DNA from: a virus
Taxonomy: Duplodnaviria > Heunggongvirae > Uroviricota > Caudoviricetes
DNA length: 14,225 nucleotides
IMG/VR virus record: IMGVR_UViG_2778261499_000007
Reading direction: 5' to 3' (one strand)
The notes beneath the pieces were generated by a model. That model was not told where the DNA came from. It did no database searches and saw only the letters and a list, made by a program, of their open reading frames with translations. Position 1 is the stretch's first letter; the number at the start of each line of letters is the position of its first letter. Positions 1,151 to 14,225 of the stretch are shown one piece after another. Made by a program: the position numbers and the translations under genes.

Positions 1151-1402
1151 TTATTTTGCAAAACGATTATGGGCATTCAGGGCTTTTTTGCGGTCCTGGG
1201 CTTGTTTGCGTGCAATAAAATGTTCGAAAGTCTCGGCCCAGGTGCATTTATTATATTCACGGTATTTATGCATAGCCTGGCGGCTAACGTCATAGCAGGC
1301 GGCAAATGTGGAGATACGCAGGAATTCCGGCAGATCCTCGTCATCGATATGGATAATATCAAAAGGCACGTCATCACGGTCGCCGTATAAAACAATTTTC
1401 AT
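1151..1402 (-). CDS. Small DNA-binding protein (helix-turn-helix-like segment ISTFAACYDVSRQAMHKY), about 83 aa
   Basis: ORF-track ORF 1151..1411 begins at GTG; the ATG at 1402-1400 is preceded by GAGGTG with 6-nt spacing. The overlapping plus-strand ORFs look like shadows. Confidence 0.4.
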   Translation of the reverse strand: MKIVLYGDRDDVPFDIIHIDDEDLPEFLRISTFAACYDVSRQAMHKYREYNKCTWAETFEHFIARKQAQDRKKALNAHNRFAK

Positions 1403-1436
1403 AAAAGACACCTCAAAAACTTAAGACGGGGATTAT

Positions 1437-1476
1437 GAGTCCTTCCAGGACCTTAGCTAAAGCTAAGCCCTTTGGG
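1437..1476. repeat. Left arm of a 40-bp inverted repeat (partner 4297-4336); itself contains the palindrome CTTAGCT..AGCTAAG
   Basis: The reverse complement of 1437-1476 matches 4297-4336 at about 36 of 40 positions by eye. Confidence 0.7.
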
Positions 1477-1478
1477 TC

Positions 1479-1487
1479 TGTGGATAA
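1479..1487. promoter_or_regulatory. Perfect DnaA-box 9-mer (TGTGGATAA, reverse complement TTATCCACA)
   Basis: Exact match to the TTATCCACA consensus; a second perfect copy lies at 3256-3264. Significance uncertain for an isolated 9-mer. Confidence 0.25.
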
Positions 1488-1537
1488 TAAAAAAGGGAAG
1501 AGGGAAAGACCTATCCCCGATCTCTCACCTCTTCCCT
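1487..1537 (-). terminator. Putative intrinsic terminator downstream of the major capsid gene
   Basis: On the minus strand, GGGAAGAGG/CCTCTTCCC stem halves (1495-1503 and 1528-1536) are followed by a T-run (complement of the A-run at 1488-1494), directly after the capsid stop at 1544-1546. Confidence 0.45.
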
Positions 1538-1543
1538 TTGCTT

Positions 1544-2578: not shown

Positions 2579-2589
2579 TTCCAACCTCC

Positions 2590-2925
2590 TTATTGTGCAA
2601 CACGCAAATCGCCATTGCTGGCAGCAATAACAGCGGCTAAGCCGTCTTTATCCACGTAGGCCGGATTGATATAACAGCCTTTGTTGGCAACAACGATAAA
2701 AGCATCACCAACCTCAGCACGTTCTACAACCAGCAGCGGAGTTTTATCGGTGTGCGTTTCTTTAACGAAGGTCTCAACCTCGCCAGCCTCAGTCACCACA
2801 ACAACAGTGCCAGCCGGAATCTCAGCTTTAACTTTGTTTTTAATTTCAACGTCGCGAATACTAAATTGCTCATCTGCGGCGTATGAAATGATGTGTCCGC
2901 GTGTGCGGATAGTCATATCTCTCAT
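2590..2925 (-). CDS. Head decoration protein (lambda gpD-like / DUF2190-like), 111 aa
   Basis: 111 aa, beta-rich with Val/Ala/Gly runs, directly upstream of the E-like capsid gene (stop at 2590-2592, capsid RBS 6 nt later). AGGTGA RBS before the ATG at 2925. Confidence 0.55.
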   Translation of the reverse strand: MRDMTIRTRGHIISYAADEQFSIRDVEIKNKVKAEIPAGTVVVVTEAGEVETFVKETHTDKTPLLVVERAEVGDAFIVVANKGCYINPAYVDKDGLAAVIAASNGDLRVAQ

Positions 2926-3255
2926 TTGATCACCTGCGATTTAAATTAACTCCCCTCAAAGAGTTCCGGTATAACCTCTCAAACCGCGACAGGCTCGGGC
3001 CGAAAAGTTATGCCGGAAATCTAAAGGGGGATTGATATAAGGAGAGGGAGATAGCCCCGCACCGTAGCCAAGCGGGGGCTATTCCACATGGGGAAACCGA
3101 CAACAGTCGGATGATAGTTCACAGTATGGGTTACGGTTACTAGAGAGCACTATCACGAAAGGCACTCCCCCGAATCAGTTCAGGCTGCGGTCACATCAGC
3201 GGGGAAATACCTTTCGGGATAGCTACCCACACAGAAAACCCGCAAAAGAAAACTG

Positions 3256-3264
3256 TGTGGATAA
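3256..3264. promoter_or_regulatory. Perfect DnaA-box 9-mer (TGTGGATAA)
   Basis: Exact consensus match within the 870-bp ORF-free leader upstream of the capsid operon. Confidence 0.25.
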
Positions 3265-3408
3265 CTAGCCCAATAGGAGAATTAATCGACCACTCAACGA
3301 TGATCAGGGTAGTGTTATTTATAGGGCGGCACCGCTACCTGGTCGCCTTTACTTTGGAGGAAAATATGGCAAATCAAGATCTTCTCAAATGATATTGATT
3401 CCATACTA

Positions 3409-3428
3409 TACTGTATATTATATCAGTA
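3409..3428. promoter_or_regulatory. LexA/SOS-box-like site (taCTGTatattataTCAGta)
   Basis: CTGT-N8-TCAG with an AT-only spacer; matches the E. coli SOS-box consensus CTGT-(AT)4-ACAG except the first base of the right half-site. Confidence 0.35.
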
Positions 3429-3775
3429 TTTACTCACATTGTCAACACCTTGATTATATAAATTCTAATAATTAGCGTAGTAACGGTATTTTCAGACCTC
3501 TATCAATCCCATCAATACGTCACCCCCACCCTTTAGATGCATACATCCGACCTACTTTGTAGGCTTGGCGTACTGCCAAGGTCGCAGCTATGCGACTCCT
3601 ATCTATCACCACTTTATAAAGCTTGATAGATATCTTTTGATCAATATCAATGTTTTCCGGGTATTTACCCGGCTATAGTTCGAATCAAGGAAGGGGAGCA
3701 TTGATAGAGACACCCAAAGGGGTGACTGAAAGTCACCTGGCATAGCCAGTGAAAGCACCCAACCGAACAAACAAA

Positions 3776-3790
3776 TCAACTTCTCGCAAA
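3776..3790 (+). promoter_or_regulatory. Conserved 15-nt motif TCAACTTCTCGCAAA, copy 1, immediately upstream of the RBS of the 3802 peptide
   Basis: Identical 15-mer at 4367-4381 and a near-identical copy (TCAACCTCTCGCGAG) at 13473-13487. Copies 1 and 2 sit at the same distance from an SD and ATG. Confidence 0.5.
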
Positions 3791-3801
3791 AGGTGATAGT
3801 T

Positions 3802-3924
3802 ATGGGTATCAAGAACAGTGCCAGCGCATGGCAAAAGGCCAGGTTTCATCACCCACACATTGTTAAGGCAATTGAGGTGGTTGGAGTTTTAGCCCTGATG
3901 TTAGCTCTGTGTGTGGAGGTGTGA
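3802..3924 (+). CDS. Small peptide, 40 aa, with hydrophobic C-terminal segment (MGIKNSASAWQKARFHHPHIVKAIEVVGVLALMLALCVEV)
   Basis: Below the ORF-track size cutoff; translated by hand. AGGTGA RBS with 5-nt spacing; predicted C-terminal transmembrane segment. Confidence 0.3.
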   Translation: MGIKNSASAWQKARFHHPHIVKAIEVVGVLALMLALCVEV

Positions 3925-3925
3925 G

Positions 3926-4006
3926 ATGGGCAAAGGAGGCAAAGCATTTTTAATAGGTCTGGCTATCCTGGATGTTCTACTAATCATGATTAAGCGGAGT
4001 TTATGA
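3926..4006 (+). CDS. Small hydrophobic peptide, 26 aa (MGKGGKAFLIGLAILDVLLIMIKRSL)
   Basis: Translated by hand. GGAGG at 3915-3919 with 6-nt spacing; ATG begins 1 nt after the preceding TGA; single predicted transmembrane helix. Confidence 0.25.
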   Translation: MGKGGKAFLIGLAILDVLLIMIKRSL

Positions 4007-4025
4007 ACAGCATTGAGAGGAGTTT

Positions 4026-4286
4026 ATGACGGGGGCTAAAGATATCAGGAGACTGAGGGAAGAGCTGATAGCTGAAATTAAAGCTAAGGCAAAGCAAATG
4101 GAGATAGCCGCACAAATGGATGTAGCGGAACAGATGTACAAGATGGTTGAGGAGGGAACGCCACGACAGGTTATCGCTAAAACCTTCGGTGTGGGGATCG
4201 CCACCGTGCACAGAAGGCTGAAAGCCTATGCCGACTACCACAATATCGAGAGAAAGGAGGATGGGAGATTTAAGAAGAATAAATAG
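4026..4286 (+). CDS. Small HTH DNA-binding protein (coiled-coil N-terminus, C-terminal HTH GTPRQVIAKTFGVGIATVHRRLK), 86 aa
   Basis: ORF track; GAGGAG RBS; clear helix-turn-helix pattern; the overlapping minus-strand ORFs are low-complexity shadows. Confidence 0.55.
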   Translation: MTGAKDIRRLREELIAEIKAKAKQMEIAAQMDVAEQMYKMVEEGTPRQVIAKTFGVGIATVHRRLKAYADYHNIERKEDGRFKKNK

Positions 4287-4296
4287 TAGGAACAGG

Positions 4297-4336
4297 CCCG
4301 AAGGGCTTAGCTTTAGCTAAGGTCCTATCAGGACTC
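4297..4336. repeat. Right arm of the 40-bp inverted repeat (partner 1437-1476); hairpin-forming
   Basis: CCCGAAGGGCTTAGCTTTAGCTAAGGTCCT... is the reverse complement of 1437-1476 with about 4 mismatches; lies between the HTH gene stop and the next gene. Confidence 0.7.
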
Positions 4337-4366
4337 CCACACAGTCCAACAGGTTATTAACTAAAT

Positions 4367-4381
4367 TCAACTTCTCGCAAA
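4367..4381 (+). promoter_or_regulatory. Conserved 15-nt motif TCAACTTCTCGCAAA, copy 2, immediately upstream of the RBS of the 4393 gene
   Basis: Exact repeat of 3776-3790, at the same spacing to SD and ATG. Confidence 0.5.
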
Positions 4382-4392
4382 GGGGTACCACT

Positions 4393-5103
4393 ATGTTTAA
4401 AGGTCTTGTTGTTACGCTATTGGCTTGCATTGTATTTGGTCCATGGGTGTTAGTAATTGCTTTACCTATATTGCTGATCATGAGCTTAGGGAATGATATT
4501 AAAAAGCTGCATGCACAATATAAGGAGCATCCTGGAGCAGTCATAACAAGTCTGGTTATAGTCGCGGGGCTTATTGGCTGGGTCTACTTCTCTCTTCCCA
4601 CAGGAAATACAACTGCAAATGTAGAAGAGGCGAACGCACAGCATGAAGAAGTGGTTAACGTCGCCGACCTTACATGGGAGGACAGGGTAAAAGCATATAA
4701 ATATATTTATGGTGTGCTAGATTGCGATCTCTCTAAAGATATAGGATGCACAGATAAATACCAGATTCACGCCTGGCTGTGGAATCATGCAGAAAAAGGT
4801 GCTTGCAACCAGATTAAAGTGGCGGTTAACAGTGGGGCACCTACTGGGAAAAATAAAGATGTTCTGACGGTATGGTGCAAGGATGTAAAAGGCAATGATC
4901 GTTGGCTACAGATGCGCCACATGGACGGTGTAAGCATAGAAACTACACGAACGGCTCGATGGTATAACGGTGAACTCGTTCACGAAGCATGGCAGAATAA
5001 CGCCTGGATCACTGAGGGAACACTCCTGAATGTTGATATGGAAGCATTGAAGATGCTTAATGAGATGTACGGTGAAGCCGTAGAAACCTCTCCGATGAAA
5101 TAA
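4393..5103 (+). CDS. Membrane protein, 236 aa: N-terminal transmembrane helices and a Cys-containing C-terminal domain; function unknown
   Basis: ORF track; two long hydrophobic segments in the first 70 aa; several Cys in the C-terminal domain; followed by a strong terminator. Confidence 0.55.
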   Translation: MFKGLVVTLLACIVFGPWVLVIALPILLIMSLGNDIKKLHAQYKEHPGAVITSLVIVAGLIGWVYFSLPTGNTTANVEEANAQHEEVVNVADLTWEDRVKAYKYIYGVLDCDLSKDIGCTDKYQIHAWLWNHAEKGACNQIKVAVNSGAPTGKNKDVLTVWCKDVKGNDRWLQMRHMDGVSIETTRTARWYNGELVHEAWQNNAWITEGTLLNVDMEALKMLNEMYGEAVETSPMK

Positions 5104-5113
5104 CCACACCTAC

Positions 5114-5143
5114 CAGGGGCCATCACGGCCCCTTTTTATTTAT
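5114..5143 (+). terminator. Rho-independent terminator (AGGGGCC-atcac-GGCCCCT followed by TTTTATTTAT)
   Basis: Perfect 7-bp GC-rich stem, 5-nt loop and T-rich tail starting 11 nt after the stop of the 4393..5103 gene. Confidence 0.7.
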
Positions 5144-5200
5144 CCCCTATTTACACTCCTTTCAGTCCTGATCATCACTCCCTACCCCCTGATCAATTAA

Positions 5201-5250
5201 CCCCTATTTAAGGGGTATTTAATGGGTATTTAATGCCTATTTATTGATTT
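5201..5250. repeat. Phased tandem repeats of TATTTAA at about 11-bp period (4 to 5 copies), plus a second CCCCTATTTA copy at 5144-5153
   Basis: cccctatttaa / ggggtatttaat / gggtatttaat / gcctatttatt / gatttaat; periodicity of about one helical turn. Confidence 0.6.
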
Positions 5251-6486
5251 AATCCGTTTTATGCCACAACCGCCCGGTTGACAGAGTAAGAGAGAGGGTG
5301 TAACCCTTTTTCGTAATACTAATAAAATCAATAGCTTAGCTCAATTGGCCTTTTCTCTGTTTTTGTCAAATTTAACATACCCTAAAAAACTGCAAAATCT
5401 GGCTGCAAGATTATCTGCAGCTGGATTTCTTACACCTCAATTTGTGGTATCACCCTGACTAGTTTGTGCATAAAATGAACAGTTTTTAACATTTCCTCTT
5501 CACCTGGTAACCACACAAAAAGCTAAAAACGAGGCACAGATAATCTTAGAGGCCTGTTTTCTTGTTATCACTCTGGAAACGTCGTAGAAGTGATTTTGAT
5601 GAAAGATGACCTACCCTATTACACCCCCATTTTTTGTTATCACAATTGCATCCTGTGCGGTGTATGGCTGTGTGCTGAAAGCGGTCTTGGGTGTGGGTGT
5701 CAGAAATATCCATTAGCGGTATTAATACCCGTCAGATGTTCGTCTGAGGTGCCAGGCAGGCGCTCCCCCACCTCCCTTTTTTCTTCTAACAATTCTCAAA
5801 TATCACACCACTGCCGACCACGTTACTACTCTGTTAATTCTTAAGCTTTGCTGTATGTTGTGCACATTATTTATTCAGGTGCGTGTACGTAAATTCTGGG
5901 CCTCCTTATCATGATTTTTAAATCAGATTTTGTAGTTCGGTTTCTTAGTGTAGATAAGATCTATTATGTTAAATGCAATTTTCCCAACCCTTCAAATCAA
6001 TGACTTACATGTAAGCATGCACTAACACCCCACACAGCACATTAGACGTATAGATGGCTATATCCCACATTTTTGATTGTTTTGTAGTCATTCCCCTGAT
6101 CATTTAACCAGTATAGTTTGTTCTTTGCAGACCACAAAATCGGAATTTACATCTGATTAACATAATCTGTTAGCATGATCACTATTACCCACACAACAAT
6201 AACCCCATGCAAGACTCTTCAGGCAATTTATCGGCGTGTTGGTGTGAACAGTCTTTCATGTTCTTTATGTTTTCATTGTCCTGTGTGAGGGAAGGATGGA
6301 CTGCCCCAGGGGCCACACTTATGATGCCCGGTCAACATAGCTATTGATAAAATCAACGGGTGTTGATCTGCATATTTCCCACACATGAGAGGAAATCAGA
6401 GCAAAGAGAGAGGAGAGAGGTTTGCTAGTCAAAATAGGTCAATTGACGGCTAATACAGAGTAAAAAATCAGATGCAATCACTCCCC

Positions 6487-6669
6487 ACCTGTTGGGATTT
6501 CCCGCACCTGTATAAGAATACAGTCATACTTTCCCGTTATACGGTCATACACATGATGGAATAACCTGTTGGAATTTCCTACAGGTTTAACCATACACAG
6601 GAGCTAACCTGTTGGAATTTCCTACTACTACCTGTCGGTATTTCCCACAGGTACCTGTTGGAATTTCCC
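6487..6669. repeat. Iteron array (5 copies of ACCTGTTGGAATTTCCY at 6487, 6564, 6607, 6630, 6653), candidate replication origin
   Basis: Near-identical 17-mers; the last three are spaced 23 bp apart; ACCTGT/ACAGGT inverted half-sites; followed by an AT-rich tract (6670-6710) and, 1.3 kb downstream, Rep-like genes. Confidence 0.7.
6508..6523. promoter_or_regulatory. Canonical SOS-box pattern CTGT-N8-ACAG (CTGTATAAGAATACAG) inside the iteron region
   Basis: Exact CTGT and ACAG half-sites with an 8-nt A/T-rich spacer. May partly reflect the iteron ACCTGT/ACAGGT half-sites. Confidence 0.35.
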
Positions 6670-6797
6670 ACACTAATAGATAAAGAGAATAGATCAATAA
6701 AAAGAACTCCCCCTATAATCCCCCAACAAGGGGGGATGGGGAGGGATCAGAGAGTGGGGAAGGTTTTCTAAGGGAAAAGCTTAACCCACAAATGAAA

Positions 6798-6826
6798 GCC
6801 TAAAGAGCATTAGCGACTCTTTAGGC
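6798..6826. other. Perfect 10-bp stem hairpin (GCCTAAAGAG-N9-CTCTTTAGGC), part of a highly structured ORF-free stretch (about 6790-7100)
   Basis: Exact inverted repeat. Nearby are GGTGAC-N21-GTCACC (6840-6872), TTAAGCC-tct-GGCTTAA, GTCCGGA-N20-TCCGGAC and tandem 17-mers at 6826-6843 and 6873-6889. Confidence 0.5.
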
Positions 6827-7231
6827 AATCTGTGTGTGGGGTGACAATGTATTCCATACATGACACGTCACCCAATTGTGTGTGGGGTGCTTACAGCACT
6901 TAAGCCTCTGGCTTAACCCTTCGGGCCTCTGTGTGGGAAGCGTAGTGCGATAGCACGTAGCTTTATAATGTGGAGTCCGGATAAGAGACTTCTGTTTCCA
7001 ATCCGGACCGTTTAAGCGAGGGATTCCGCTCGCCCGTGTATGCACACACGTAATAGGACGCTCAGAAATCGATTTTAAGGCCCAAAACGGGGCCTACAGC
7101 AACCTAAACCATACTCCATAGTGCAATTGCATTGCCTGATGCTTAAATCGCGTTGTAGGGCATCTCATGAGGTTTGAGTTTAACACCCTCCAAAGTTTTA
7201 ACAAAAAGTGCTCTCCCTCCATTGTGGGCCA

Positions 7232-7261
7232 TTGACAATCTTATTGCATAAATGCTATAAG
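7232..7261 (+). promoter_or_regulatory. Sigma70-like promoter (TTGACA-N18-TATAAG)
   Basis: Consensus -35 hexamer with a 5-of-6 match -10 at 18-nt spacing. One of five (A/T)TTGACAAT-type repeats in 7230-7560. Confidence 0.4.
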
Positions 7262-7551
7262 TGATTCTGGTTTTGACACGGTAGGGGCCATTAATAATGT
7301 TTACCCCTTTGCTGTGGACTTGCTTGCACCTATAGCACACCTAAATGATAATAATTCTCATTGACAATTGGTTGACAATATGATAAGATTATAAATAGGG
7401 GGAGAAACAGATCCGGAGGTCAATGTGGAAATTACTGATGCAATAGCGATCATCAACCTGGCTGTACTGTGGTGCGGTGTTGCCTACATAGCCGGAGTAA
7501 CTGCAATCGACAATCTCGAAGAAAAAATGATAGATAAATACAAAAAGATTG

Positions 7552-7580
7552 TTGACAATTTGACGAATGTCTGATAAAAT
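7552..7580 (+). promoter_or_regulatory. Sigma70-like promoter (TTGACA-N17-TAAAAT) about 125 nt upstream of the 7706 gene
   Basis: Consensus -35 and near-consensus -10 at optimal spacing, oriented toward the replication gene block. Confidence 0.45.
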
Positions 7581-7705
7581 ATAAAGCATAGGGTAATTCT
7601 CATCATAGTGAATTTCCTTAAACAAAAATGCGGGGGCTTGTCTTAAGTTCCCGTTTCTTTTTAACCGTATATCGCACAGGCGGTGAGCTGACAGGAGATT
7701 GAATC

Positions 7706-7915
7706 ATGGCTAAAACCGGACCGATAAGCCAGCTGGTAAACTGGACTACTGACGAAATCGTCGAGAACGTGCTTAAAGGTAACTTTCGAAAAACTTCCGT
7801 TTATGCATTTATTCGTAAACACAAAGGGGAATACCCACATATTGAAGCGGCAATAGAAAAACTTAACTTTATCCGCATTGAGCGTGAGCTGGAAAGATAT
7901 AAACATCTACTTTGA
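7706..7915 (+). CDS. Small hypothetical protein, 69 aa (possible regulator)
   Basis: ORF track; AGGAGA RBS with 7-nt spacing; first gene of the plus-strand block that continues into the Rep-like genes. Confidence 0.45.
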   Translation: MAKTGPISQLVNWTTDEIVENVLKGNFRKTSVYAFIRKHKGEYPHIEAAIEKLNFIRIERELERYKHLL

Positions 7916-7939
7916 TAAATAATCTTGGAGGATCATATT

Positions 7940-8326
7940 ATGGCAAATAACGATGAAAATTTTACTCCCTTTTTTAAACGTTTCATCAAATACACTTTTA
8001 AAAATCCGATTGCAAAAACTGCAACCAATAAAGAAAGATTTCACTTAAATGTGTTGGAGGTAACAATTTATGGTGAAATGGTAAGTTATTCTTTTAAGGA
8101 GGGTGAAGAAATAATTATCTCAGAGCTCTCGACGCAGACATTAGCAGACGATTATGATGTTACAGAGAAAACAGTAAGGTCGGCTATCAAAACATTAGAG
8201 GCTGCAGGTCTGATAAACGTTAAACGAGAACAGGGCAAATCGAATATCTACGAATTGCTAATTACCCCTGATCAGCTTGGCAAGATGTGCGATGAGCAGG
8301 GTATTAGAGAATATTTTATATATTAA
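7940..8326 (+). CDS. Rep-like winged-helix protein, short paralog (about 128 aa); replication-initiator-type HTH
   Basis: Segment ISELSTQTLADDYDVTEKTVRSAIKTLEAAGLINVKREQGKSNIYELL fits the winged-helix pattern of phage/plasmid replication initiators. GGAGG RBS before the ATG at 7940 (track start 7925 is a TTG). Paralogous to the next gene. Confidence 0.5.
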   Translation: MANNDENFTPFFKRFIKYTFKNPIAKTATNKERFHLNVLEVTIYGEMVSYSFKEGEEIIISELSTQTLADDYDVTEKTVRSAIKTLEAAGLINVKREQGKSNIYELLITPDQLGKMCDEQGIREYFIY

Positions 8327-8337
8327 TGGGGGGAACT

Positions 8338-9258
8338 ATGGCAGGAAATAAACTGGGGGCACCTTTTACCCCCTCTTTCGATTTCTTTATTCAGTATGAT
8401 TTTGATAAACCAGTAGCAACAACAATTTCTAATAAAAAGACTGGAACAGTTAAAGAGCGCTTCTATTTAACAGACTTTGAAATGTTGATTTATGGAAAAA
8501 TGGTGGGATTTCATTTTAACGGTGAGGGAATTTATATTTCAGAGCAAAAACTGGCAACTCAACTCAGAAAGGATCGCGGGAAAATAGTAAGCGCTATTAA
8601 ATCTCTGGAAAATGCCGGGCTTATTTCTAAAGATAGCCGGAAAGGCATGTCTAATAATTACAAATTGCTGAAAACCCCTGATCAATTGTTGGATATGTGC
8701 ATTGAGAAGGGCGTAAATATTCCAGAAGGCATCTTAGAGACTTTCGGAAAGACTGCCGCTAAAGTAGAACAGCCTCAGGAAGCCCCAAAACAAGCCACAC
8801 AGCAAGCTAAAAAGGCTAAAGTAGTGCAATTGCCTACCCAAGACACTAAAGCGCCTCAAATTAACGCTGTTAGTGACAAGCCACGCCGGGGCCGTCCTGT
8901 GAAAGATGTCACCGATGGAGGCTGGATCGTCCTGGGTGAGAGTGAGGCTAAAGGCATAATGCGATCACTGTGGGAAAGCAAATACAAAGATTTAAACAAA
9001 CGTCGCCCGATCCTTTTGTCAAAGATTCAGGAGGATTTTTACACCGCAGAAGAGGTAAGCCAACATAAAGGGAAAAGAGAGGGTGAAATCTGGAAACCGG
9101 AAGAATACTGGCATTTAACCAGACCTGTGTTTATTTTTGCAAATAAGCTTATTGGGATGGGATTTGAAATATTGTTGGATAAAACCTGCGGAGATTATCC
9201 CGAAATATTGTGGAGAAATGTTAGAAAAAATAAAAAAGGCATTTTAGAGTTTAAATAA
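8338..9258 (+). CDS. Rep-like replication initiator, long paralog (about 306 aa) with a C-terminal extension
   Basis: N-terminal 120 aa parallels the preceding gene (MA.N...FTP.F...; ...SAIKSLENAGLISKDSRKGMSNNYKLL). The previous stop overlaps an upstream ATG at 8326 (TAATG); 8338 is preceded by a G-rich SD. Iterons lie upstream. Confidence 0.5.
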   Translation: MAGNKLGAPFTPSFDFFIQYDFDKPVATTISNKKTGTVKERFYLTDFEMLIYGKMVGFHFNGEGIYISEQKLATQLRKDRGKIVSAIKSLENAGLISKDSRKGMSNNYKLLKTPDQLLDMCIEKGVNIPEGILETFGKTAAKVEQPQEAPKQATQQAKKAKVVQLPTQDTKAPQINAVSDKPRRGRPVKDVTDGGWIVLGESEAKGIMRSLWESKYKDLNKRRPILLSKIQEDFYTAEEVSQHKGKREGEIWKPEEYWHLTRPVFIFANKLIGMGFEILLDKTCGDYPEILWRNVRKNKKGILEFK

Positions 9259-9275
9259 AAACACTGATAATCTTA

Positions 9276-9289
9276 TTTTTTTTTTTTTT
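9276..9289. repeat. Homopolymeric T tract (14 T)
   Basis: Seen directly in the sequence between the Rep gene stop and the 9307 ORF. Confidence 0.8.
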
Positions 9290-9306
9290 GTTTAAGGAAA
9301 TTTAAA

Positions 9307-9453
9307 ATGTATGGCGATTTTGATTATTACCTGGAAAAGGAAAAATATTTTGAAGATGAACTATCACAACATTTTTCATATTGGGAAGAATATTGTGGTT
9401 GGTTAGCTGAAGATCCAGCAGATGAAGAAAATGATTCTGACATCCCTTATTAA
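9307..9453 (+). CDS. Small, strongly acidic, aromatic-rich protein, 48 aa (MYGDFDYYLEKEKYFEDELSQHFSYWEEYCGWLAEDPADEENDSDIPY)
   Basis: Below the ORF-track cutoff; translated by hand. AAGGAAA RBS about 7 nt upstream; composition dominated by Asp/Glu/Tyr/Trp. Confidence 0.35.
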   Translation: MYGDFDYYLEKEKYFEDELSQHFSYWEEYCGWLAEDPADEENDSDIPY

Positions 9454-9551
9454 TTAATATCCCCTGTTATCCCCAAACAAACTAAATAAATAAACTAAGC
9501 ACTAGAACTAGATTGATTGCCCTGATCTTTTAAACGTTCGGAGAATTAATC

Positions 9552-10040
9552 ATGTTCAAATCTGATCTTTCTGATTCCCAATTTGAAAAACTGGTAGCAC
9601 TGCAGAAATATCTCCCCAGTGATGATCAACCAACACGACAGGCTAAACACTTATTAGTCGAGGGCTTTACCCCTGAATTCGTGGCGGAATATACAGGCGT
9701 TAAACTTGAGAAAGTCCAAAAACTATATAATGAGTCCTGGAATCCACGGTGTCGAGTTCCCCTCAGTGTCTACAACGAAATAGATAGAGATAGAAATGTC
9801 TTCGAAGATCGCCGCCGCAAATCTCTTTTAATGTGGAATTGTGGGATGAATATTGAAGAGATAGCAAAAGAATTAAAAGTAACCTGCTTTCATATCTGGG
9901 GCTTGTTGAGTGAAATCCTACCACGTAAGGAGCTTAATCAACGTTTGCCTAAGCCCGGTAGTCGTGCTTATCGCGAATTTATATTCATCTACCGCCGCCA
10001 TAGCAATAAAGTCCGGAAAGCAATGGCCCAGAAAGCCTAA
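9552..10040 (+). CDS. Hypothetical protein, 162 aa, with two HTH-like segments (possible DNA-binding or regulatory protein)
   Basis: ORF track; GGAGA RBS; basic C-terminus; HTH-like stretches FTPEFVAEYTGVKLEKVQKLY and MNIEEIAKELKVTCFHIWGLL. Confidence 0.45.
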   Translation: MFKSDLSDSQFEKLVALQKYLPSDDQPTRQAKHLLVEGFTPEFVAEYTGVKLEKVQKLYNESWNPRCRVPLSVYNEIDRDRNVFEDRRRKSLLMWNCGMNIEEIAKELKVTCFHIWGLLSEILPRKELNQRLPKPGSRAYREFIFIYRRHSNKVRKAMAQKA

Positions 10041-10113
10041 GTTTTATCTCTTCGATTTATTTATTTTCGACTCACTTTAACCCCTTCCGGGGCTCTAATT
10101 TAAGGAATTCCAA

Positions 10114-10557
10114 ATGTCTCAAATCGCTAAATTACTATCCCAGGTTATCAAAGCTTTCGACGCTGAAGATTCAAAAGTTCGCCAGGATCTTTTAGATGGC
10201 AAGTTTACCAACACCCTGGCATTTACCCGTGACAAAGAGCACTTCTTAAAACACAGACACCACGCTTTTGCTGAATGCAAGTCCGCTAATGGTGATGTTT
10301 TCTATGTCGATTTGGTGGTTATGGCATGTAGATTGTGGATGATTCAGGACCTTATGCGCCAACACGGTGATGATCCTCTTATCAGCATGTGGAACAGCGC
10401 CCAGGATGGCTTTGTGATTGCTGCCTTATCCAAATCAATGATTGAGGCAGAAGGGGCAAGCCTTCAGAACATGGCAGATCTCTTTGAAATAAGCGTAGGA
10501 ATGATGCAGACCATGCTCCAAGCTGTCAAACCTCTCAAACTGGTTAATCTTGATTAA
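10114..10557 (+). CDS. Hypothetical protein, 147 aa
   Basis: ORF track; AAGGAA RBS with 7-nt spacing; no recognisable motif. Confidence 0.45.
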   Translation: MSQIAKLLSQVIKAFDAEDSKVRQDLLDGKFTNTLAFTRDKEHFLKHRHHAFAECKSANGDVFYVDLVVMACRLWMIQDLMRQHGDDPLISMWNSAQDGFVIAALSKSMIEAEGASLQNMADLFEISVGMMQTMLQAVKPLKLVNLD

Positions 10558-10618
10558 GCTATTGATAAATAAGCACTCCCCATTTTTTTGGGGGGTGCAT
10601 CAATGAGAGGATATGCCT

Positions 10619-11002
10619 ATGAATATTGAAGAAATGATAGTTGAATTCGAAGATGGTGATTTCCTGGAAGATGGGGAGTTTAAATACTCCCGTTTTAAAC
10701 AGGCGTTATTTAGCAGTGAGGATAAACCACACGTTAGTGATCTTAACGACGATGATTTATGTCGTTGGGTATGCACCCGCTTATATGAGGATGGAAAATA
10801 TACAGGCCAAAACTTTCCAAATCTCTATTTCAAAGCACAAACATTTGAGGAAGGGCAAAGAGTGAAAAACCTGGTAGATAAAATGCTTTCAGCCGGATAT
10901 TTGCATAAAGAATTATTAAATCCTAAAGCTGAAAGCAAGCGCCATTATATTTTTGTGTGGTCTGTGGGGGATAAGTGCCCACTGAAGCGTAAAGGCAAAT
11001 GA
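10619..11002 (+). CDS. Acidic hypothetical protein, about 127 aa; possible tail assembly chaperone by position upstream of the tape-measure gene
   Basis: GAGAGGA RBS is correctly spaced for the ATG at 10619 (track start 10613 is too close to the SD). Acidic composition and tight packing against the next two genes. Confidence 0.4.
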   Translation: MNIEEMIVEFEDGDFLEDGEFKYSRFKQALFSSEDKPHVSDLNDDDLCRWVCTRLYEDGKYTGQNFPNLYFKAQTFEEGQRVKNLVDKMLSAGYLHKELLNPKAESKRHYIFVWSVGDKCPLKRKGK

Positions 11003-11003
11003 T

Positions 11004-11189
11004 ATGAATACCTACGAAAAGATTTATCAAAAATTAAAAAGTGATAACAATGCTCCCGTCATCAAGGGCGGGGCTTCTTCCTCTGGTGACCTCTCAATCG
11101 AAGAGCTTGCGGAGAAATATAATATTGATAAAGAGGCCCTGAAAAGGGCTATTTCATTATCAAAATCTTTAAGACAAGGCGAGGTATAA
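11004..11189 (+). CDS. Small hypothetical protein, 61 aa, immediately upstream of the tape-measure gene
   Basis: ORF track; ATG 1 nt after the previous stop; its stop lies 1 nt before the tape-measure ATG. Confidence 0.35.
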   Translation: MNTYEKIYQKLKSDNNAPVIKGGASSSGDLSIEELAEKYNIDKEALKRAISLSKSLRQGEV

Positions 11190-11190
11190 A

Positions 11191-13293
11191 ATGGCAATGA
11201 AGGAAGTAGCCAAGCTAACAAACGTTATTTACTGGGATTCTGATAAATCCAGCTGGCGAAAAGAAGTTAAACGGCTTGAGGATTATAAAAAATCCTGGAA
11301 GAAAGCTACCGACGATATAGCTAAAGCGGATTTTAAATCTAATCAGGCTGTGCTCAGAACACAAAGAACACGCGCTAAGGTGGAAGAGCAGATCGCCAGA
11401 GCACAGAAGAAACAACGTGCTCAGGCTGTCAGCCGTCTGACCGGGGGCAATAATCCGGAGCTCTCCTCTATGCGCAAGTTCTATCAGCAGCAAGCCAGAG
11501 AGGCCGCCAGACAACAAAAACTGTTAGATCGTAGTGTTGGAGATGTTCAGCACAGAAAAGCACGTGTAGGGGCCAACAGTGCACGAATCAGCAGCATGTT
11601 TGATGGCTCCCTGGTTGCTCAGTTCCAATCCAGAATTCAGAGAGTTAATGCTGATTATGCTAAAGGGGCTATTAACCTGCAGACCTATAATCAGAAAATG
11701 GCCCGACTCAGATCTGAAATGAAGATGGCAACAGCAGAGGCCGGAAAATTTCAGAGCAGACTAGACAAAGCTGCGGTAGCAGGATCAAAGCTGCATGACA
11801 ACCTGGGCAAACTCAACTCCACACTAGGCAAGATAGCTATTGGCCTTACTGCCGCTGGCTGGGGTGTTCAGCGTGCTGTTAGTGGTGCTATGGGTAGCCT
11901 TGCAGATCGCAACAGTGCGTATTTCAGCTTAATGGCCCAGAACAAGGATGATAAAGAAAAAACTGATCAGCAGATGGCCTACGTCAAAAGAATCTCTTAT
12001 GACTACGGGATGGATCAGCGTGAGACTGAAGGCGGCTTTATGCGCTTTGCTGCAGCCACACCAAGCATAAAAGAGAAAGATAAGCAGGATCTCTTTGAGG
12101 CTATGGCGATTAAAGGCCGATCAGTGGGTGCTACCGCAGACCAACAGAACAGGGCTATCGTTGCACTAGGACAAATATATAGCAAGGGCGGTCGAGTGTA
12201 TGCGGAAGAGCTTAAGGGCCAACTTTCTGAAGCCCTGGCAGGTTCTCAGGTAGATTTCACTAAGGCCGCTATCGATGCCGGAGTCATCAAGAAAGAGGAA
12301 GAATTTAATAAAGCCCTTGAAGATGGCAAGATCACCATGGACAAGCTTCTTCCTTCTCTGGTGAAAATCTGGGGTGCTGCAAAAGAAACTAAAGCTTTTG
12401 CTGAATCCATGAAACAGCCAGAAGTAGCAATGCAGCGCATGAAAAACAGCTTTAACGAGCTGGCGATTCAGTTTATGGGTGTTGTGGATCCTGCAGATGG
12501 CGTTATTAGCTTATCTGAATCTCTAATCTCCATCTTCGAAGACCTCACCACTGATATGGACGGCAGCGGGAGCGCGGCAAAACAGTTCGGTGAGGCAGTC
12601 GGGGCTGCCATGCGGGAGATCATGTATTGGGTAGGCTTCGCTAAGGGATATATCGAGATTAAGGCTAAAGAGTTCGGCATGACCAGTGAGGAAGTCGGAG
12701 GATGGATCGGCAAGCTGGTTGTTGCAATCGCAGGTCTGAAGATCATCGGCACACTTCTTTCTCCGTTTACCGGACTGATTTCACTTGTCACACAGCTGAT
12801 AGCCTTGTTAGGTAAAATCCCTGGTATGAGCAAGCTTCTGGCTTCTGCCTCAGGTGGAACGGCAACAGGAGCAGCGGTCATCAGTGCAGGATCTAACGCT
12901 GAAAGAAGTTTCATTGATGGCAAGACGCAGGAAATGAGTAAGGAGAACTCAAAACAGGGTGCTTTGTTTGAGCTGGGAAGATTTGTTAGCAATGCTGGCG
13001 CACTATTCACACCTGGCGGTGATACTGGTCCTTTGTTCGATCAGGTCAGAGGCTGGTTTAATAAAGGGCCAACATTGACAGTAGACACTGGCATCAGACC
13101 AACACCAACGGGTGGCATAGCTATCCAGAATGGTGGATATCAACCAGTCCAAGTAAATGTAGCCCCACAAGGTGAGATTTCCGGCAAATGGGAGATAACC
13201 ATCGATGAGGGGGGAATTGCCAGGGTAATTCAGAAGGAAGTCAGCGATCAGTTGGATTGGAAAGCCACGCAGGAATCTAACCAGCTTTTCTAA
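11191..13293 (+). CDS. Tail tape measure protein-like, 700 aa
   Basis: Long coiled-coil N-terminal region; segment ADQQNRAIVALGQIYSKGGRVYAEELKGQLSEALAGSQVDF matches the conserved tape-measure domain pattern (SKG...EEL..QL.E.L.G); long hydrophobic helices at about residues 505-560; Gly-rich C-terminus. Confidence 0.7.
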   Translation: MAMKEVAKLTNVIYWDSDKSSWRKEVKRLEDYKKSWKKATDDIAKADFKSNQAVLRTQRTRAKVEEQIARAQKKQRAQAVSRLTGGNNPELSSMRKFYQQQAREAARQQKLLDRSVGDVQHRKARVGANSARISSMFDGSLVAQFQSRIQRVNADYAKGAINLQTYNQKMARLRSEMKMATAEAGKFQSRLDKAAVAGSKLHDNLGKLNSTLGKIAIGLTAAGWGVQRAVSGAMGSLADRNSAYFSLMAQNKDDKEKTDQQMAYVKRISYDYGMDQRETEGGFMRFAAATPSIKEKDKQDLFEAMAIKGRSVGATADQQNRAIVALGQIYSKGGRVYAEELKGQLSEALAGSQVDFTKAAIDAGVIKKEEEFNKALEDGKITMDKLLPSLVKIWGAAKETKAFAESMKQPEVAMQRMKNSFNELAIQFMGVVDPADGVISLSESLISIFEDLTTDMDGSGSAAKQFGEAVGAAMREIMYWVGFAKGYIEIKAKEFGMTSEEVGGWIGKLVVAIAGLKIIGTLLSPFTGLISLVTQLIALLGKIPGMSKLLASASGGTATGAAVISAGSNAERSFIDGKTQEMSKENSKQGALFELGRFVSNAGALFTPGGDTGPLFDQVRGWFNKGPTLTVDTGIRPTPTGGIAIQNGGYQPVQVNVAPQGEISGKWEITIDEGGIARVIQKEVSDQLDWKATQESNQLF

Positions 13294-13395
13294 TGTCCAC
13301 TCTGTGGATTTGAGTTCTACTCAAACCTGCATAGCAGGCACTGATATTGTGATCAAAATCAATAAGTTAGCCTGACCGGACAAACTCCAGGCAAG

Positions 13396-13426
13396 AAAAA
13401 AGCCCCTAAGTGTTAACAAAGGGGCT
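13396..13426 (-). terminator. Rho-independent terminator for minus-strand transcription (AGCCCCT-N12-AGGGGCT followed by six T on the minus strand)
   Basis: Perfect 7-bp stem at 13401-13407 and 13420-13426; the A-run at 13396-13401 on the plus strand gives the U-tail on the minus strand. Confidence 0.55.
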
Positions 13427-13472
13427 CTTCTCCGGTATCCTTTTGATGCGGGGCAAAACCTGCTAACAAAAA

Positions 13473-13487
13473 TCAACCTCTCGCGAG
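13473..13487 (+). promoter_or_regulatory. Conserved motif copy 3 (TCAACCTCTCGCGAG), in the loop of an 11-bp inverted repeat (13458-13468 and 13493-13503)
   Basis: 13 of 15 identical to the motif at 3776 and 4367; not followed by a credible ORF, which argues for function at the DNA or RNA level. Confidence 0.4.
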
Positions 13488-13845
13488 ACTAATGTTAGCA
13501 GGTTGCCGGAAGGTAAGTCAACTCCGGTCTATAAACCTTAAAGCGACTATAAAATCGCCCCGCCAATTGTGATGATCCGACCTTTGAGGCGGGTCCGGTG
13601 CCCAGGGGGTGCAGTGATGCACAAACCAGGCAACGATAAACAGGCTAACAGTGATAGCGGCGCTCAATCAGCGCACTAAATCCTAACCAGTCCGGGAAAG
13701 AGGCTGGCTCTATCGACCGCTCATGCACGGGACAATGCATACCTGATAAAGGATTCTCACAAGGGACCAATCGCGAGAAAGAAGTGGAAAGGGGCTGATT
13801 TGTGGTGTATCACTACGGCCTCAAAAGACATCCTATTGTCTTTTT

Positions 13846-14225
13846 TCAGCCTCTACCTACATTTGACCAATACTTGATTGCACCGATCAAATCATCATAG
13901 TGGCGCATTGCATCATTGAAGCCTTTATAGCTTGCCCATTGTGGTGAAACCTTGTTATTGCTGAATTGCCCACTAATCAGGATAGTCTCCAAAATGTCGG
14001 CATATCGCTTACCAATACGCTTTCTGACGGCCTCAGAGCTCCCACCCTTTACGATTGCATTAATCAGGGCTTTTGTGTGTCTCAGGCTCTCATAGAGCAT
14101 TGCAGCGTGGGCAGATTCCATAAAGGAGCGCTTAGGCAGATCACCCCACCCCTCAGAGTGGATAGCTGCCAGTGTGGCGTAATTCAGGCCGCTATAGTGC
14201 TTTCCGTCATCCCAGCCAACCGCTA
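13846..14225 (-). CDS. Hypothetical protein, C-terminal part (...MESAHAAMLYESLRHTKALINAIVKGGSSEAVRKRIGKRYADILETILISGQFSNNKVSPQWASYKGFNDAMRHYDDLIGAIKYWSNVGRG); same gene as 1-156 if circular (about 152 aa total)
   Basis: The frame is open from the window end down to the TGA at 13846-13848; the upstream portion is supplied in frame by 156->1 through the 77-bp junction. Confidence 0.5.
   Translation of the reverse strand, partial: AVGWDDGKHYSGLNYATLAAIHSEGWGDLPKRSFMESAHAAMLYESLRHTKALINAIVKGGSSEAVRKRIGKRYADILETILISGQFSNNKVSPQWASYKGFNDAMRHYDDLIGAIKYWSNVGRG
14149..14225. repeat. Terminal direct repeat, right copy (identical to 1-77)
   Basis: Same 77-mer as the window start; consistent with a circular contig written with overlap, or a direct terminal repeat. 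Confidence 0.9.

What the first reader, a model, noticed from the sequence alone, without database searches (positions are those of the whole stretch)
10619..13293. Tape-measure-like protein on an element that otherwise has no recognisable tail genes
The 700-aa ORF has the expected tape-measure architecture: coiled-coil N-terminal region, conserved tape-measure motif, internal hydrophobic helices and Gly-rich C-terminus. It is preceded by two tightly packed small ORFs that could be chaperones. No tail tube, sheath, terminator or baseplate gene is recognisable, although the ORFs at 153-956 and 13846-156 remain unassigned. It could substitute for a helper's tape measure to set tail length, or have a non-structural role.
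Basis: partly seen in the sequence, partly recalled or inferred. Interest (0 to 1): 0.6.

Follow-up and report, generated by a model that had tools for sequence, protein, structure and literature searches.

The report
Tape measure gene on satellite plasmid
The ORF is a genuine, selected tape measure protein carried by a widespread ~14 kb E. coli plasmid that looks like an undescribed parasite ("satellite") of rV5-like lytic phages, and it sits beside two other tail genes, so the element probably builds its own version of the helper phage's tail.

Summary
ORF 11191-13293 (700 aa) is a real tape measure protein (TMP): PHROG 5255 at 2e-153, TIGR02675 above its cutoff, and colinear with the 778-aa TMP of rV5-like phages.

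The claim that the element has no other tail genes is wrong.
- 153-956(-) is a tail tube initiator, 50% identical to the rV5-like protein.
- The junction gene 13846..156(-) is a homolog (45% identical) of an rV5 neck-cluster gene.
- The two small upstream ORFs show no chaperone signal, and one looks like a helix-turn-helix (HTH) protein.

The window is a 14,148-bp circle. It belongs to a family of 13.2-14.3 kb, non-mobilizable E. coli plasmids found in hundreds of assemblies. They carry iterons, replication initiator genes and their own capsid gene, but no portal, terminase, tube, sheath or wedge genes.

The trio of tube initiator, TMP and tail completion-like gene recurs in distant ~13 kb metagenomic elements and in a second, ~20 kb E. 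coli family. All trio genes are under purifying selection. Two non-coding motifs match only rV5-like phages.

Best reading: a plasmid satellite of Vequintavirus phages that assembles chimeric, roughly 10 nm shorter tails, like Vibrio PLE. No paper in the searched library describes it. Nothing here has been tested experimentally.

The parts
11191..13293 (+). Tape measure protein, 700 aa. It is a shortened ortholog of the rV5-like (Vequintavirus) TMP and the last gene of the rightward operon.
   Evidence: phrog_5255 at 2.3e-153. TIGR02675 at 3.3e-8, above cutoff. 26% identity over aa 4-502 to the phage JohannBauhin TMP of 778 aa, and a colinear global alignment. 9cuy_W at 2.7e-21. dN/dS 0.17. 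Length 698-707 aa in 120 homologs.
153..956 (-). Tail tube initiator (Dit-like 'phage baseplate protein'), 267 aa from the ATG at 956. The mechanical ORF extends to 1010 with a TTG start.
   Evidence: PF21821 Dit_like at 2.5e-25. phrog_5197 at 4.8e-108. 50% identity to the rV5-like 'tail tube initiator protein'. Solved phiTE tube initiator 9cuy_K at 1.4e-34. RefSeq homologs are annotated at 804 nt.
13846..14148 (-). 3' part of the junction-spanning gene (152 aa in all), which is tail completion / Neck1-like.
   Evidence: Circularisation after removing the 77-bp terminal duplicate gives a 152-aa ORF. phrog_222 at 2.3e-28. 45% identity over the full length to rV5-like bas53_0011, also 152 aa. 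The AF2 model has pLDDT 90 and no PDB fold match. BFVD matches include 'putative neck protein' and 'virion morphogenesis protein'.
1..156 (-). 5' part of the same junction-spanning gene. The start codon is at 156-154 and overlaps the stop of the tube initiator gene by 4 nt.
1544..2584 (-). Major capsid protein, 346 aa, a divergent homolog of the rV5-like capsid protein.
   Evidence: phrog_29 at 5.5e-21. 24% identity over 97% of its length to Vequintavirus major capsid proteins. Relatives hit PF03864 Phage_cap_E. dN/dS 0.10.
2590..2925 (-). Conserved 111-aa ORF immediately upstream of the capsid gene. The helper has its head decoration gene in this position, but homology is not shown.
   Evidence: No family hit. 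No tblastn match to the helper. 47% identical in distant relative L014, and an ORF of similar size sits in the same position in L009. dN/dS 0.09.
1151..1411 (-). Conserved 86-aa ORF of unknown function, between the capsid gene and the tube initiator gene.
   Evidence: No family hit. 35% identical in L014.
10613..11002 (+). 129-aa ORF upstream of the TMP, function unknown. It is not recognisably a tail assembly chaperone.
   Evidence: No hits in Pfam, PHROGs, NCBIfam or PADLOC. No match to the helper. dN/dS 0.16.
11004..11189 (+). 61-aa ORF directly upstream of the TMP, with weak helix-turn-helix similarity. It is replaced by a 78-80 aa variant in some family members.
   Evidence: UPF0122/YlxM, GntR and HTH_11 hits, all below cutoff. 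Variants seen.
9552..10557 (+). Two conserved ORFs in the TMP operon. The first (162 aa) has two weak HTH-like segments; the second (147 aa) is unknown.
   Evidence: The 162-aa protein is 39% identical in L014. dN/dS 0.14 and 0.10.
7925..9258 (+). Two paralogous winged-helix replication initiator-like genes (133 aa and 310 aa). This is a variable specificity region.
   Evidence: phrog_270/678/391 replication initiation hits and HTH_36. Direct repeat D2 links the two genes. Variable between family members.
6485..6671 (.). Iterons: five copies of a ~21-23 nt repeat, the putative plasmid origin of replication.
7552..7580 (+). Near-consensus sigma-70 promoter (11 of 12 positions, extended -10) for the rightward operon that ends with the TMP.
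   Evidence: It lies within the 42-nt inverted repeat I2, shared with the leftward promoter.
3417..3445 (-). Consensus sigma-70 promoter (12 of 12 positions) for the leftward operon: 111-aa ORF, capsid gene, 86-aa ORF, tube initiator, tail completion-like gene. A ~490-nt structured leader follows it.
3704..3755 (.). Non-coding motif A, shared only with the gene-free region of rV5-like phages.
   Evidence: 70 phage records match, all rV5-like, with up to 90% identity over 52 nt and E 8e-11. Present in 3 of 6 plasmids compared.
5781..5805 (.). Non-coding motif B (TTCTTnTAACAATTCTCAAATATC), shared only with rV5-like phages.
   Evidence: 88 phage records match, all rV5-like. Present in all 6 plasmids compared.
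14149..14225 (.). Assembly duplicate of bases 1-77, the signature of a circular contig.

Best explanation
The window is a complete 14,148-bp circular plasmid that acts as a satellite of rV5-like (Vequintavirus) lytic myophages of E. coli.

Between infections it replicates on its own, using iterons and Rep-like proteins. It keeps two near-consensus promoters with homologous sequence, presumably repressed.

When a helper infects, two operons are expressed.
- The leftward operon gives a private capsid protein, a tail tube initiator and a tail completion-like protein.
- The rightward operon ends with a private TMP.

These three tail proteins are the parts that start the tube on the baseplate hub (initiator), set its length (TMP) and finish its head-proximal end (completion protein). 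The helper supplies everything else: hub, spike, wedges, fibres, tube, sheath, terminator, portal and terminase.

The expected result is a chimeric tail about 10-12 nm shorter than the helper's. It would be joined to a small capsid that holds one ~14 kb plasmid copy.

Shown here: gene identities, homology to the helper, conservation of the three genes together, purifying selection, plasmid state, and the absence of other virion genes.

Inferred: helper dependence, incorporation of the three proteins into particles, shorter tails, a small capsid, and the reason a private tail core is needed.
For: (1) TMP identity and colinearity with the helper TMP.
- Both docking ends are recognisably conserved: the N-proximal motif NPE(L/M)xxMRKFYQQQAxEA (47% identity over aa 51-100, visible even at DNA level) and the C-terminal GKxxIxIDEG segment.
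- About 80 aa are missing, in three deletions within the N-terminal third.

(2) Four structural genes have their closest phage homologs only in Vequintavirinae.
- Tube initiator 50%, completion-like 45%, TMP 26%, capsid protein 24% identity.

(3) Structural context from the solved Vequintavirinae virion phiTE.
- The initiator is the first hexamer ring on the hub, the TMP C-terminus is buried in the hub and puncturing device, and the TMP N-terminus lies under the connector.
- So the three satellite proteins occupy one continuous axis of the tail.

(4) The three genes stay together.
- TMP and Dit_like co-occur in all 5 distant element types examined, and the 150-160 aa gene is present in 4 of 5.
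- A second E. coli family of ~20 kb carries them as a contiguous cassette, and they are almost the only genes there with rV5 homologs.

(5) The genes are functional.
- dN/dS is 0.17 for the TMP, 0.20 for the initiator, 0.04 for the completion-like gene and 0.10 for the capsid gene.
- TMP length is 698-707 aa in 120 variants, with a single heptad indel.

(6) Satellite-like biology.
- The element is always a 13.2-14.3 kb plasmid, never chromosomal, typed non-mobilizable, and found in more than 100 sequence variants.
- No portal, terminase, protease, tube or sheath gene was found.

(7) Non-coding motifs.
- Two non-coding motifs match only rV5-like phages among 50,697 phage records.

(8) Precedent.
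- PLE satellites encode a TMP, a chaperone and a baseplate hub protein at 19-41% identity to ICP1. They incorporate these into virions and have tails 10 nm shorter.
- All six satellite-type TMPs seen here (694-761 aa) are shorter than the two Vequintavirinae TMPs checked (778 and 811 aa).
Against: - There is no experimental evidence for induction, packaging or particle composition.
- No small terminase, pac site or capsid-size determinant was identified, so how the plasmid would be packaged is unknown.
- No tail assembly chaperone is recognisable, unlike in PLE.
- The closest known phage is only 50% identical for the initiator and 26% for the TMP. The real helper may therefore be an unsampled relative.
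- The 152-aa protein has no match to any chain of the solved phiTE virion or to any PDB fold. Its structural role, and even its presence in virions, is not established.
- The 78-aa length difference is modest, and no benefit of a shorter tail is known.
Confidence: 0.62

Rival explanations
1. Assembly interference (defence) without transfer. The plasmid-encoded TMP, tube initiator and completion-like protein act as dominant-negative decoys. They poison the tail assembly of an infecting rV5-like phage and so protect the bacterial population. The plasmid itself is not packaged.
For: Divergent copies of multimeric assembly proteins are plausible poisons. The TMP is the most divergent structural gene in the family (67-97% aa identity, against 94-99% for the others), with a variable middle segment, as expected in an arms race. 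Tail-assembly interference is a known defence theme (paper titles listed; PLE11 Rta).
Against: The element also keeps a capsid gene under strong purifying selection. Its size is tightly constrained at 13.2-14.3 kb across hundreds of variants, and even distant relatives are ~13-14 kb. That fits a packaging limit better than a pure defence plasmid. Both docking ends of the TMP are conserved with the helper, which fits productive incorporation. No PADLOC hit was found. The two roles are not exclusive, since PLE does both.
Confidence: 0.17
2. The TMP mainly serves DNA delivery rather than setting tail length. A private TMP, ejected ahead of the DNA, would let satellite DNA cross the envelope while evading entry-level blocks that recognise the helper's TMP.
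For: TMPs are ejected and help genome entry, and a membrane nuclease (SNIPE) associates with TMPs to cut incoming DNA (abstract). The two hydrophobic helices at aa 501-547 are retained. The most variable part of the gene is internal (aa ~270-400 and 476-550), while length is fixed.
Against: This does not explain why the tube initiator and the completion-like gene always travel with the TMP. SNIPE evidence concerns siphoviruses. No entry-blocking system aimed at rV5-like phages was linked to this plasmid.
Confidence: 0.12
3. A decaying remnant of a phage or phage-plasmid, or a mis-assembled fragment of a large phage genome, with the TMP as non-functional cargo.
For: Only a few virion genes remain. 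About 3.7 kb (26%) of the circle is non-coding.
Against: All structural genes are intact and under purifying selection. The same gene order occurs in closed plasmids from four continents. The non-coding regions are 93-100% conserved. Elements sharing the TMP and tube initiator but diverged to 30-37% TMP identity, most of them also carrying the completion-like gene, exist. There is no DNA identity to any phage genome beyond short motifs.
Confidence: 0.04

Closest known systems
[quoted passage not shown]
   Same: Both parasitise a virulent T=13-class myophage. Both encode a private TMP that is a distant homolog (about 20-26% identity) of the helper's and about 10-14% shorter, plus a private protein of the baseplate centre. 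In PLE these replace the helper's proteins in virions and shorten the tail by 10 nm.
   Different: Here the element is an autonomous plasmid with iterons, not an integrated island. It carries its own major capsid protein rather than an external scaffold. No tail assembly chaperone is recognisable. A tail completion-like gene is part of the conserved trio. Incorporation into particles is untested.
EPIPs of Mycolicibacterium aichiense (bioRxiv 10.64898/2025.12.02.691453)
   Same: These satellites also encode a TMP and a capsid protein.
   Different: EPIPs have an integrase, a small terminase and head-tail adaptors. They depend on a temperate siphovirus prophage and have longer tails of variable length. 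They have no tube initiator and are not plasmids.
Capsid-forming PICIs (cf-PICIs)
   Same: Small elements that encode their own capsid protein and take the rest of the virion from a helper.
   Different: cf-PICIs encode a full head and packaging module (portal, protease, terminases, connectors) and an integrase, and they steal complete tails. This element has only the capsid protein plus one or two small head-side ORFs, no packaging genes, and three tail genes.
Satellite P4 (helper P2)
   Same: An ~11.6 kb element that can persist as a plasmid and is packaged in a small capsid built with helper machinery (established knowledge).
   Different: P4 has no homologs of helper structural proteins. 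It uses the Sid scaffold and Psu, and it takes unmodified P2 tails.
TMP, tube initiator and neck genes of Vequintavirinae phages (rV5, phage JohannBauhin bas53_0018, 0019 and 0011; phiTE PDB 9CUY/9MJN)
   Same: These are direct homologs of the three satellite proteins, with the same domain order in the TMP.
   Different: In the phages the genes sit in a complete ~40 kb virion module with a chaperone, tube and sheath. The phage TMPs are 778-811 aa against 700 aa here.

Membership tests
Tape measure protein (TMP) | Sequence signature of TMP families (TIGR02675 / PF20155 / TMP PHROGs) | tested here: met
   TIGR02675 scores 33.7 bits against a cutoff of 21.35. phrog_5255 at 2.3e-153 and four other TMP PHROGs. 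Relatives carry precomputed PF20155 hits. My own Pfam scan found nothing.
Tape measure protein (TMP) | Homology to a TMP seen inside a solved tail | tested here: met
   9cuy_W (phiTE TMP) at 2.7e-21 and 9ndy_F at 9.7e-9.
Tape measure protein (TMP) | Long, mostly helical protein with hydrophobic segments and a Gly-rich C-terminal part, and a constrained length | tested here: met
   Hydrophobic aa 501-547, G/P-rich aa 601-650, heptad periodicity at aa 365-530. Length 698-707 aa in 120 homologs with one 7-aa indel. Helicity itself was not modelled.
Tape measure protein (TMP) | Located downstream of a tail assembly chaperone (often with a programmed frameshift) inside a tail gene cluster | tested here: not met
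   The upstream ORFs hit no chaperone family and have no match to the helper chaperone bas53_0016. The 61-aa ORF lies in the +1 frame, not -1, relative to the 129-aa ORF (coordinates). The gene ends a replication/regulation operon.
Tape measure protein (TMP) | Present in virions, where it determines tail length | not testable with these tools
   Needs electron microscopy and mass spectrometry of particles.
Phage satellite (general) | Lacks the genes needed to form a virion on its own | tested here: met
   No portal, terminase, protease, tube, sheath, wedge, fibre or lysis gene was found among all ORFs scanned. There are no long ORFs in the gaps.
Phage satellite (general) | Autonomous maintenance and replication | tested here: met
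   Closed circular plasmids. Iterons. Rep-like winged-helix proteins.
Phage satellite (general) | Specific link to one helper lineage | tested here: met
   Four proteins and two non-coding motifs match only Vequintavirinae / rV5-like phages.
Phage satellite (general) | Helper-dependent induction, packaging and transfer | not testable with these tools
   Requires infection and transduction experiments.
PLE-type chimeric tail module | Satellite TMP homologous to, and shorter than, the helper TMP | tested here: met
   700 aa against 778 aa, 26% identity, colinear.
PLE-type chimeric tail module | Satellite-encoded tail assembly chaperone | tested here: not met
   No chaperone family hit for any ORF. 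No structure-based test was done.
PLE-type chimeric tail module | Satellite-encoded baseplate-centre protein replacing the helper's | tested here: inconclusive
   A tube initiator homolog is present. Whether it corresponds to PLE BhuB was not tested because no PLE sequences were at hand.
PLE-type chimeric tail module | Sequence homology to PLE genes, or integration like PLE | not tested
   The element is a plasmid. No integrase is present in this family.
cf-PICI | Complete capsid and packaging module plus an integrase | tested here: not met
   Only the capsid protein and small ORFs are present. There is no portal, protease, terminase or integrase.
Phage-plasmid | Plasmid that encodes a complete phage | tested here: not met
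   14 kb in total, with 4-5 virion genes.

The most novel reading that the evidence does not exclude
These plasmids, with their ~13 kb metagenomic relatives and a ~20 kb E. coli sister family, may form a previously unrecognised class of satellites of large virulent myophages. Their hallmark would be a portable 'start, ruler, stop' tail-core cassette (tube initiator, TMP, tail completion protein). By supplying the three proteins that nucleate, measure and cap the tail tube, the satellite would run a private tail-assembly line on helper-made tube and sheath subunits. The completion protein would direct these tails to satellite-made small capsids. This would be a second, independent origin of chimeric tails, in the E. 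coli model system and on a plasmid.
Probability: 0.45. Interest if true: 0.85.

Novelty: new variant of a known kind. Interest (0 to 1): 0.74.

Why it matters
Until 2025, satellites were thought to steal phage tails unchanged. PLE of V. cholerae was reported as the first family to rebuild them.

A second, unrelated family would show that manipulating the tail core is a recurrent strategy rather than a Vibrio oddity. This one is in E. coli, is plasmid-borne and is aimed at rV5-like phages. It would also make the question testable in the best genetic system available.

It would explain how a set of E. coli plasmids typed as 'non-mobilizable' may spread. A recent review notes that many such plasmids have no known transfer route and may be undiscovered satellites.

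rV5-like phages are commonly isolated lytic coliphages. A plasmid that parasitises or blocks them could matter for phage-based applications.

The conserved trio also singles out the 152-aa protein, which has no solved structure, as a likely partner of the TMP and initiator.

Tried and rejected
SEARCHES THAT FOUND NOTHING
- Megablast of the whole circle against 50,697 phage records: no match.
- Scan of IMG/VR viral contigs with TMP peptide patterns: no relatives.
- tRNA and Rfam scans of the window: nothing. Rfam on the helper's gene-free region: nothing.
- PADLOC defence models on the accessory and unknown ORFs: nothing meaningful.
- Literature searches for rV5 or Vequintavirus satellites, or plasmid satellites with a TMP: no description of this family.

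TESTS THAT FAILED OR GAVE NO ANSWER
- A T4-like late-promoter motif and an rV5 late-promoter motif recalled from memory did not verify in the helper genome, so I dropped them.
- The first AF2 model of the 152-aa protein, from a 4-sequence alignment, was unusable (pLDDT 45).
- The 111-aa ORF as a decoration protein: it has only positional equivalence with the helper gene and no detectable similarity.

IDEAS REJECTED
- Chaperone role for the two ORFs upstream of the TMP.
- Autonomous mini-phage, and decaying prophage (see rival explanations).


Full report
WHAT THE WINDOW IS

The first 77 bases are repeated exactly at the end. The sequence is therefore a circular assembly of 14,148 bp.

Closing the circle restores a 152-aa gene on the minus strand that starts at base 156 and ends at 13846.

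The circle has two outward-facing operons.
- The leftward operon is driven by a perfect sigma-70 promoter at 3445-3417. It contains a 111-aa ORF, the major capsid protein, an 86-aa ORF, a Dit-like protein and the junction gene.
- The rightward operon is driven by an 11/12 promoter at 7552-7580. It contains a 69-aa ORF, two Rep-like winged-helix genes, four small ORFs and, last, the 700-aa ORF.

The two promoters lie in a 42-nt inverted repeat, so they are copies of one another.

Five iterons lie at 6485-6671. About 3.7 kb has no ORFs.

CHECK OF THE OBSERVATION

The 700-aa ORF (11191-13293) is a TMP.
- PHROG 5255 at 2.3e-153, plus four other TMP PHROGs.
- TIGR02675 above its curated cutoff at aa 310-386.
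- A match to the TMP seen in the solved phiTE tail, 9cuy_W, at 2.7e-21.

Two adjacent hydrophobic helices (aa 501-547) and a Gly/Pro-rich C-terminal part are present.

The 'coiled-coil N-terminus' is only partly borne out. The region is charged and A/Q-rich, and the family's only indel is one heptad at residue 70. Heptad periodicity, however, is strongest at aa 365-530.

My Pfam scans gave no hit, although near-identical relatives carry a precomputed PF20155 hit.

THE ELEMENT DOES HAVE OTHER TAIL GENES

ORF 153-956(-) is a tail tube initiator.
- Pfam Dit_like at 2.5e-25.
- The solved phiTE tube initiator 9cuy_K at 1.4e-34.
- 50% identity to the 'tail tube initiator protein' of rV5-like phages.

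The junction gene hits PHROG 222 ('tail completion or Neck1') at 2.3e-28. It is 45% identical over its whole length to a 152-aa gene that lies between the capsid and sheath genes of phage JohannBauhin.

I modelled the junction protein with a 56-sequence alignment (pLDDT 90).
- A profile search finds no chain of the phiTE virion.
- It does match ~155-aa phage proteins in BFVD, a few of them labelled 'neck' or 'virion morphogenesis'.

So it is not a tube, terminator or hub fold. 'Tail completion-like' rests on family labels and gene position.

THE CHAPERONE IDEA

The two ORFs in front of the TMP hit no chaperone family. The helper's own chaperone hits phrog_3840 at 6.5e-69.

They have no similarity to the helper. 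The 61-aa ORF has weak HTH hits and is replaced by a different 78-80 aa variant in some plasmids. The chaperone idea is not supported.

WHAT KIND OF ELEMENT THIS IS

The TMP has more than 100 variants at 91-98% identity, almost all on contigs of 13.2-14.3 kb from E. coli.

Closed copies exist as plasmids in 7 of 5,426 complete E. coli genomes and in 5 PLSDB records. They are never chromosomal and are typed non-mobilizable. One 39.6 kb record holds three copies. Gene order is the same in plasmids from Chile, the USA, Japan and China.

No portal, terminase, protease, tube, sheath, wedge, fibre or lysis gene is present.

LINK TO A HELPER LINEAGE

The nearest phage homologs of the capsid protein (24%), TMP (26%), tube initiator (50%) and junction gene (45%) all lie in Vequintavirinae. 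These are ~136 kb virulent myophages.

Independently, two short non-coding motifs match only rV5-like phages among 50,697 phage records, and always in unannotated DNA.
- Motif A (3704-3755): 70 records, up to 90% identity over 52 nt, E 8e-11.
- Motif B (5781-5805): 88 records.
- In JohannBauhin both fall in a 2.5 kb gene-free region where two transcription arms converge.

THE TMP COMPARED WITH THE HELPER'S

The two proteins align from end to end.

Conserved blocks include an N-proximal motif (aa ~88-105), the TIGR02675 region and the extreme C-terminus (GKxxIxIDEG).

The satellite protein lacks about 80 residues, in three deletions within the N-terminal third: 700 aa against 778 aa.

In phiTE the TMP C-terminus is buried in the hub and puncturing device under the initiator ring, and the N-terminal part lies beneath the connector.

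At 1.5-1.6 Å per residue, or the 1.26 Å per residue implied by phiTE (811 aa, 102 nm), the predicted tail is about 10-12 nm shorter. This is inference.

CONSERVATION OF THE TRIO

TMPs at 33-37% identity lie on ~13-14 kb metagenomic contigs. All of these also carry a Dit-like gene, most carry the 150-aa gene, and two also have the capsid gene next to a ~110-aa ORF.

A second E. coli family of ~19-20 kb carries initiator, TMP (751 aa) and a 162-aa homolog as one contiguous cassette. Apart from an 81-aa protein, these are its only genes with rV5 homologs.

In the window the three genes are also neighbours across the junction: 11191-13293, 13846..156 and 153-956.

SELECTION

Across six plasmids, dN/dS is 0.17 (TMP), 0.20 (initiator), 0.04 (junction gene) and 0.10 (capsid protein).

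The TMP is nevertheless the most divergent structural gene: 67-97% aa identity, against 94-99% for the others. Its middle segment is variable. Its length stays within 698-707 aa.

INTERPRETATION

The simplest account is a plasmid satellite of Vequintavirus phages. It would supply its own capsid protein and the three proteins that start, measure and complete the tail tube, and take everything else from the helper.

The closest precedent is PLE of V. cholerae. Its TMP, chaperone and baseplate hub protein are 19-41% identical to those of ICP1. They replace the ICP1 proteins in virions and shorten the tail by 10 nm. PLE was reported as the first satellite family to do this. EPIPs of Mycolicibacterium are a second report of a satellite TMP.

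The differences here are:
- plasmid state;
- its own capsid protein;
- no recognisable chaperone;
- a tail completion-like gene in the cassette.

The narrow size range fits a packaging limit. By volume scaling from a T=13, 136 kb head, T=3 would hold about 15 kb and T=4 about 23 kb. This is my own estimate, not a result.

Rivals are pure assembly interference, a role mainly in DNA entry (SNIPE precedent) and a decaying remnant. The last is contradicted by the selection and conservation data.

WHAT IS NOT SHOWN

Nothing here shows induction, packaging, particle composition, tail length, the packaging signal, or the reason for a private tail core. No paper describing this family was found in the searched library.

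Noticed in passing
window 3704-3755 (motif A) and 5781-5805 (motif B); phage JohannBauhin MZ501083 91846-91895 and 92478-92501: Two short non-coding motifs are shared only with the 2.5 kb gene-free region of rV5-like phages (70 and 88 phage records, all rV5-like). Motif A can form alternative hairpins (CACCC/GGGTG or GGTGAC/GTCACC, then CTGG/CCAG) and keeps its stems while the loops differ. It follows an annotated terminator in phage Murica. Function is unknown; it could be a packaging, origin or regulatory site.
   Followed up: partly
window 2930-4020 and 5104-7700: About 3.7 kb of the 14.1 kb circle has no ORFs, yet 2930-4000 and 5200-6400 are 93-100% identical across the family, as conserved as the genes. 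The most stable predicted RNA folds of the whole plasmid all lie in non-coding DNA: 2881-3280(-), 3521-3680(-), 6560-7120 and 13281-13600. The first of these is the ~490-nt leader between the leftward promoter and the capsid operon. There are no Rfam matches.
   Followed up: partly
window 3406-3447 and 7550-7591: A 42-nt inverted repeat contains both near-consensus sigma-70 promoters. The capsid/tail operon and the replication/TMP operon therefore have homologous promoters and are probably under one regulator.
   Followed up: partly
window 1437-1481 and 4292-4336: A 45-nt inverted repeat (89% complementary) brackets the capsid gene, the 111-aa ORF, the leader region and the small resolvase-type HTH gene 4026-4286 (HTH_7, 3.4e-6). 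These could be matching bidirectional terminators or the ends of an invertible segment. The distant relatives L009 and L014 encode a full resolvase nearby.
   Followed up: no
L015/L016 (Logan SRR16894927 and SRR16894873, ~20 kb contigs); L011-L013: A second family of E. coli elements, ~19-20 kb, carries a contiguous Dit-like, TMP (751-761 aa) and 162-aa cassette. It also has a small tyrosine recombinase and an AntA-like protein, but no recognisable capsid gene.
   Followed up: partly
window 4393-5103: A 236-aa predicted membrane protein sits in the main variable hotspot. Other family members have unrelated 173-195 aa ORFs in its place. It has no Pfam, PHROG or PADLOC hit and may be accessory cargo.
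   Followed up: partly
window 3773-3793, 4364-4384, 13470-13490: There are three copies of a 21-nt motif (AAATCAACTTCTCGCAAAAGG, 76-90% identity) in three separate non-coding regions, one of them immediately after motif A. It could be a binding site for a regulator.
   Followed up: no
NZ_CP043822.1 (39,610 bp plasmid record): One closed plasmid record holds three copies of the element. It is either a real multimer or concatemer, or a long-read assembly artefact. Ten copies of ~13.6 kb would equal one helper genome length (~136 kb), so concatemer packaging into full-size heads cannot be excluded.
   Followed up: no
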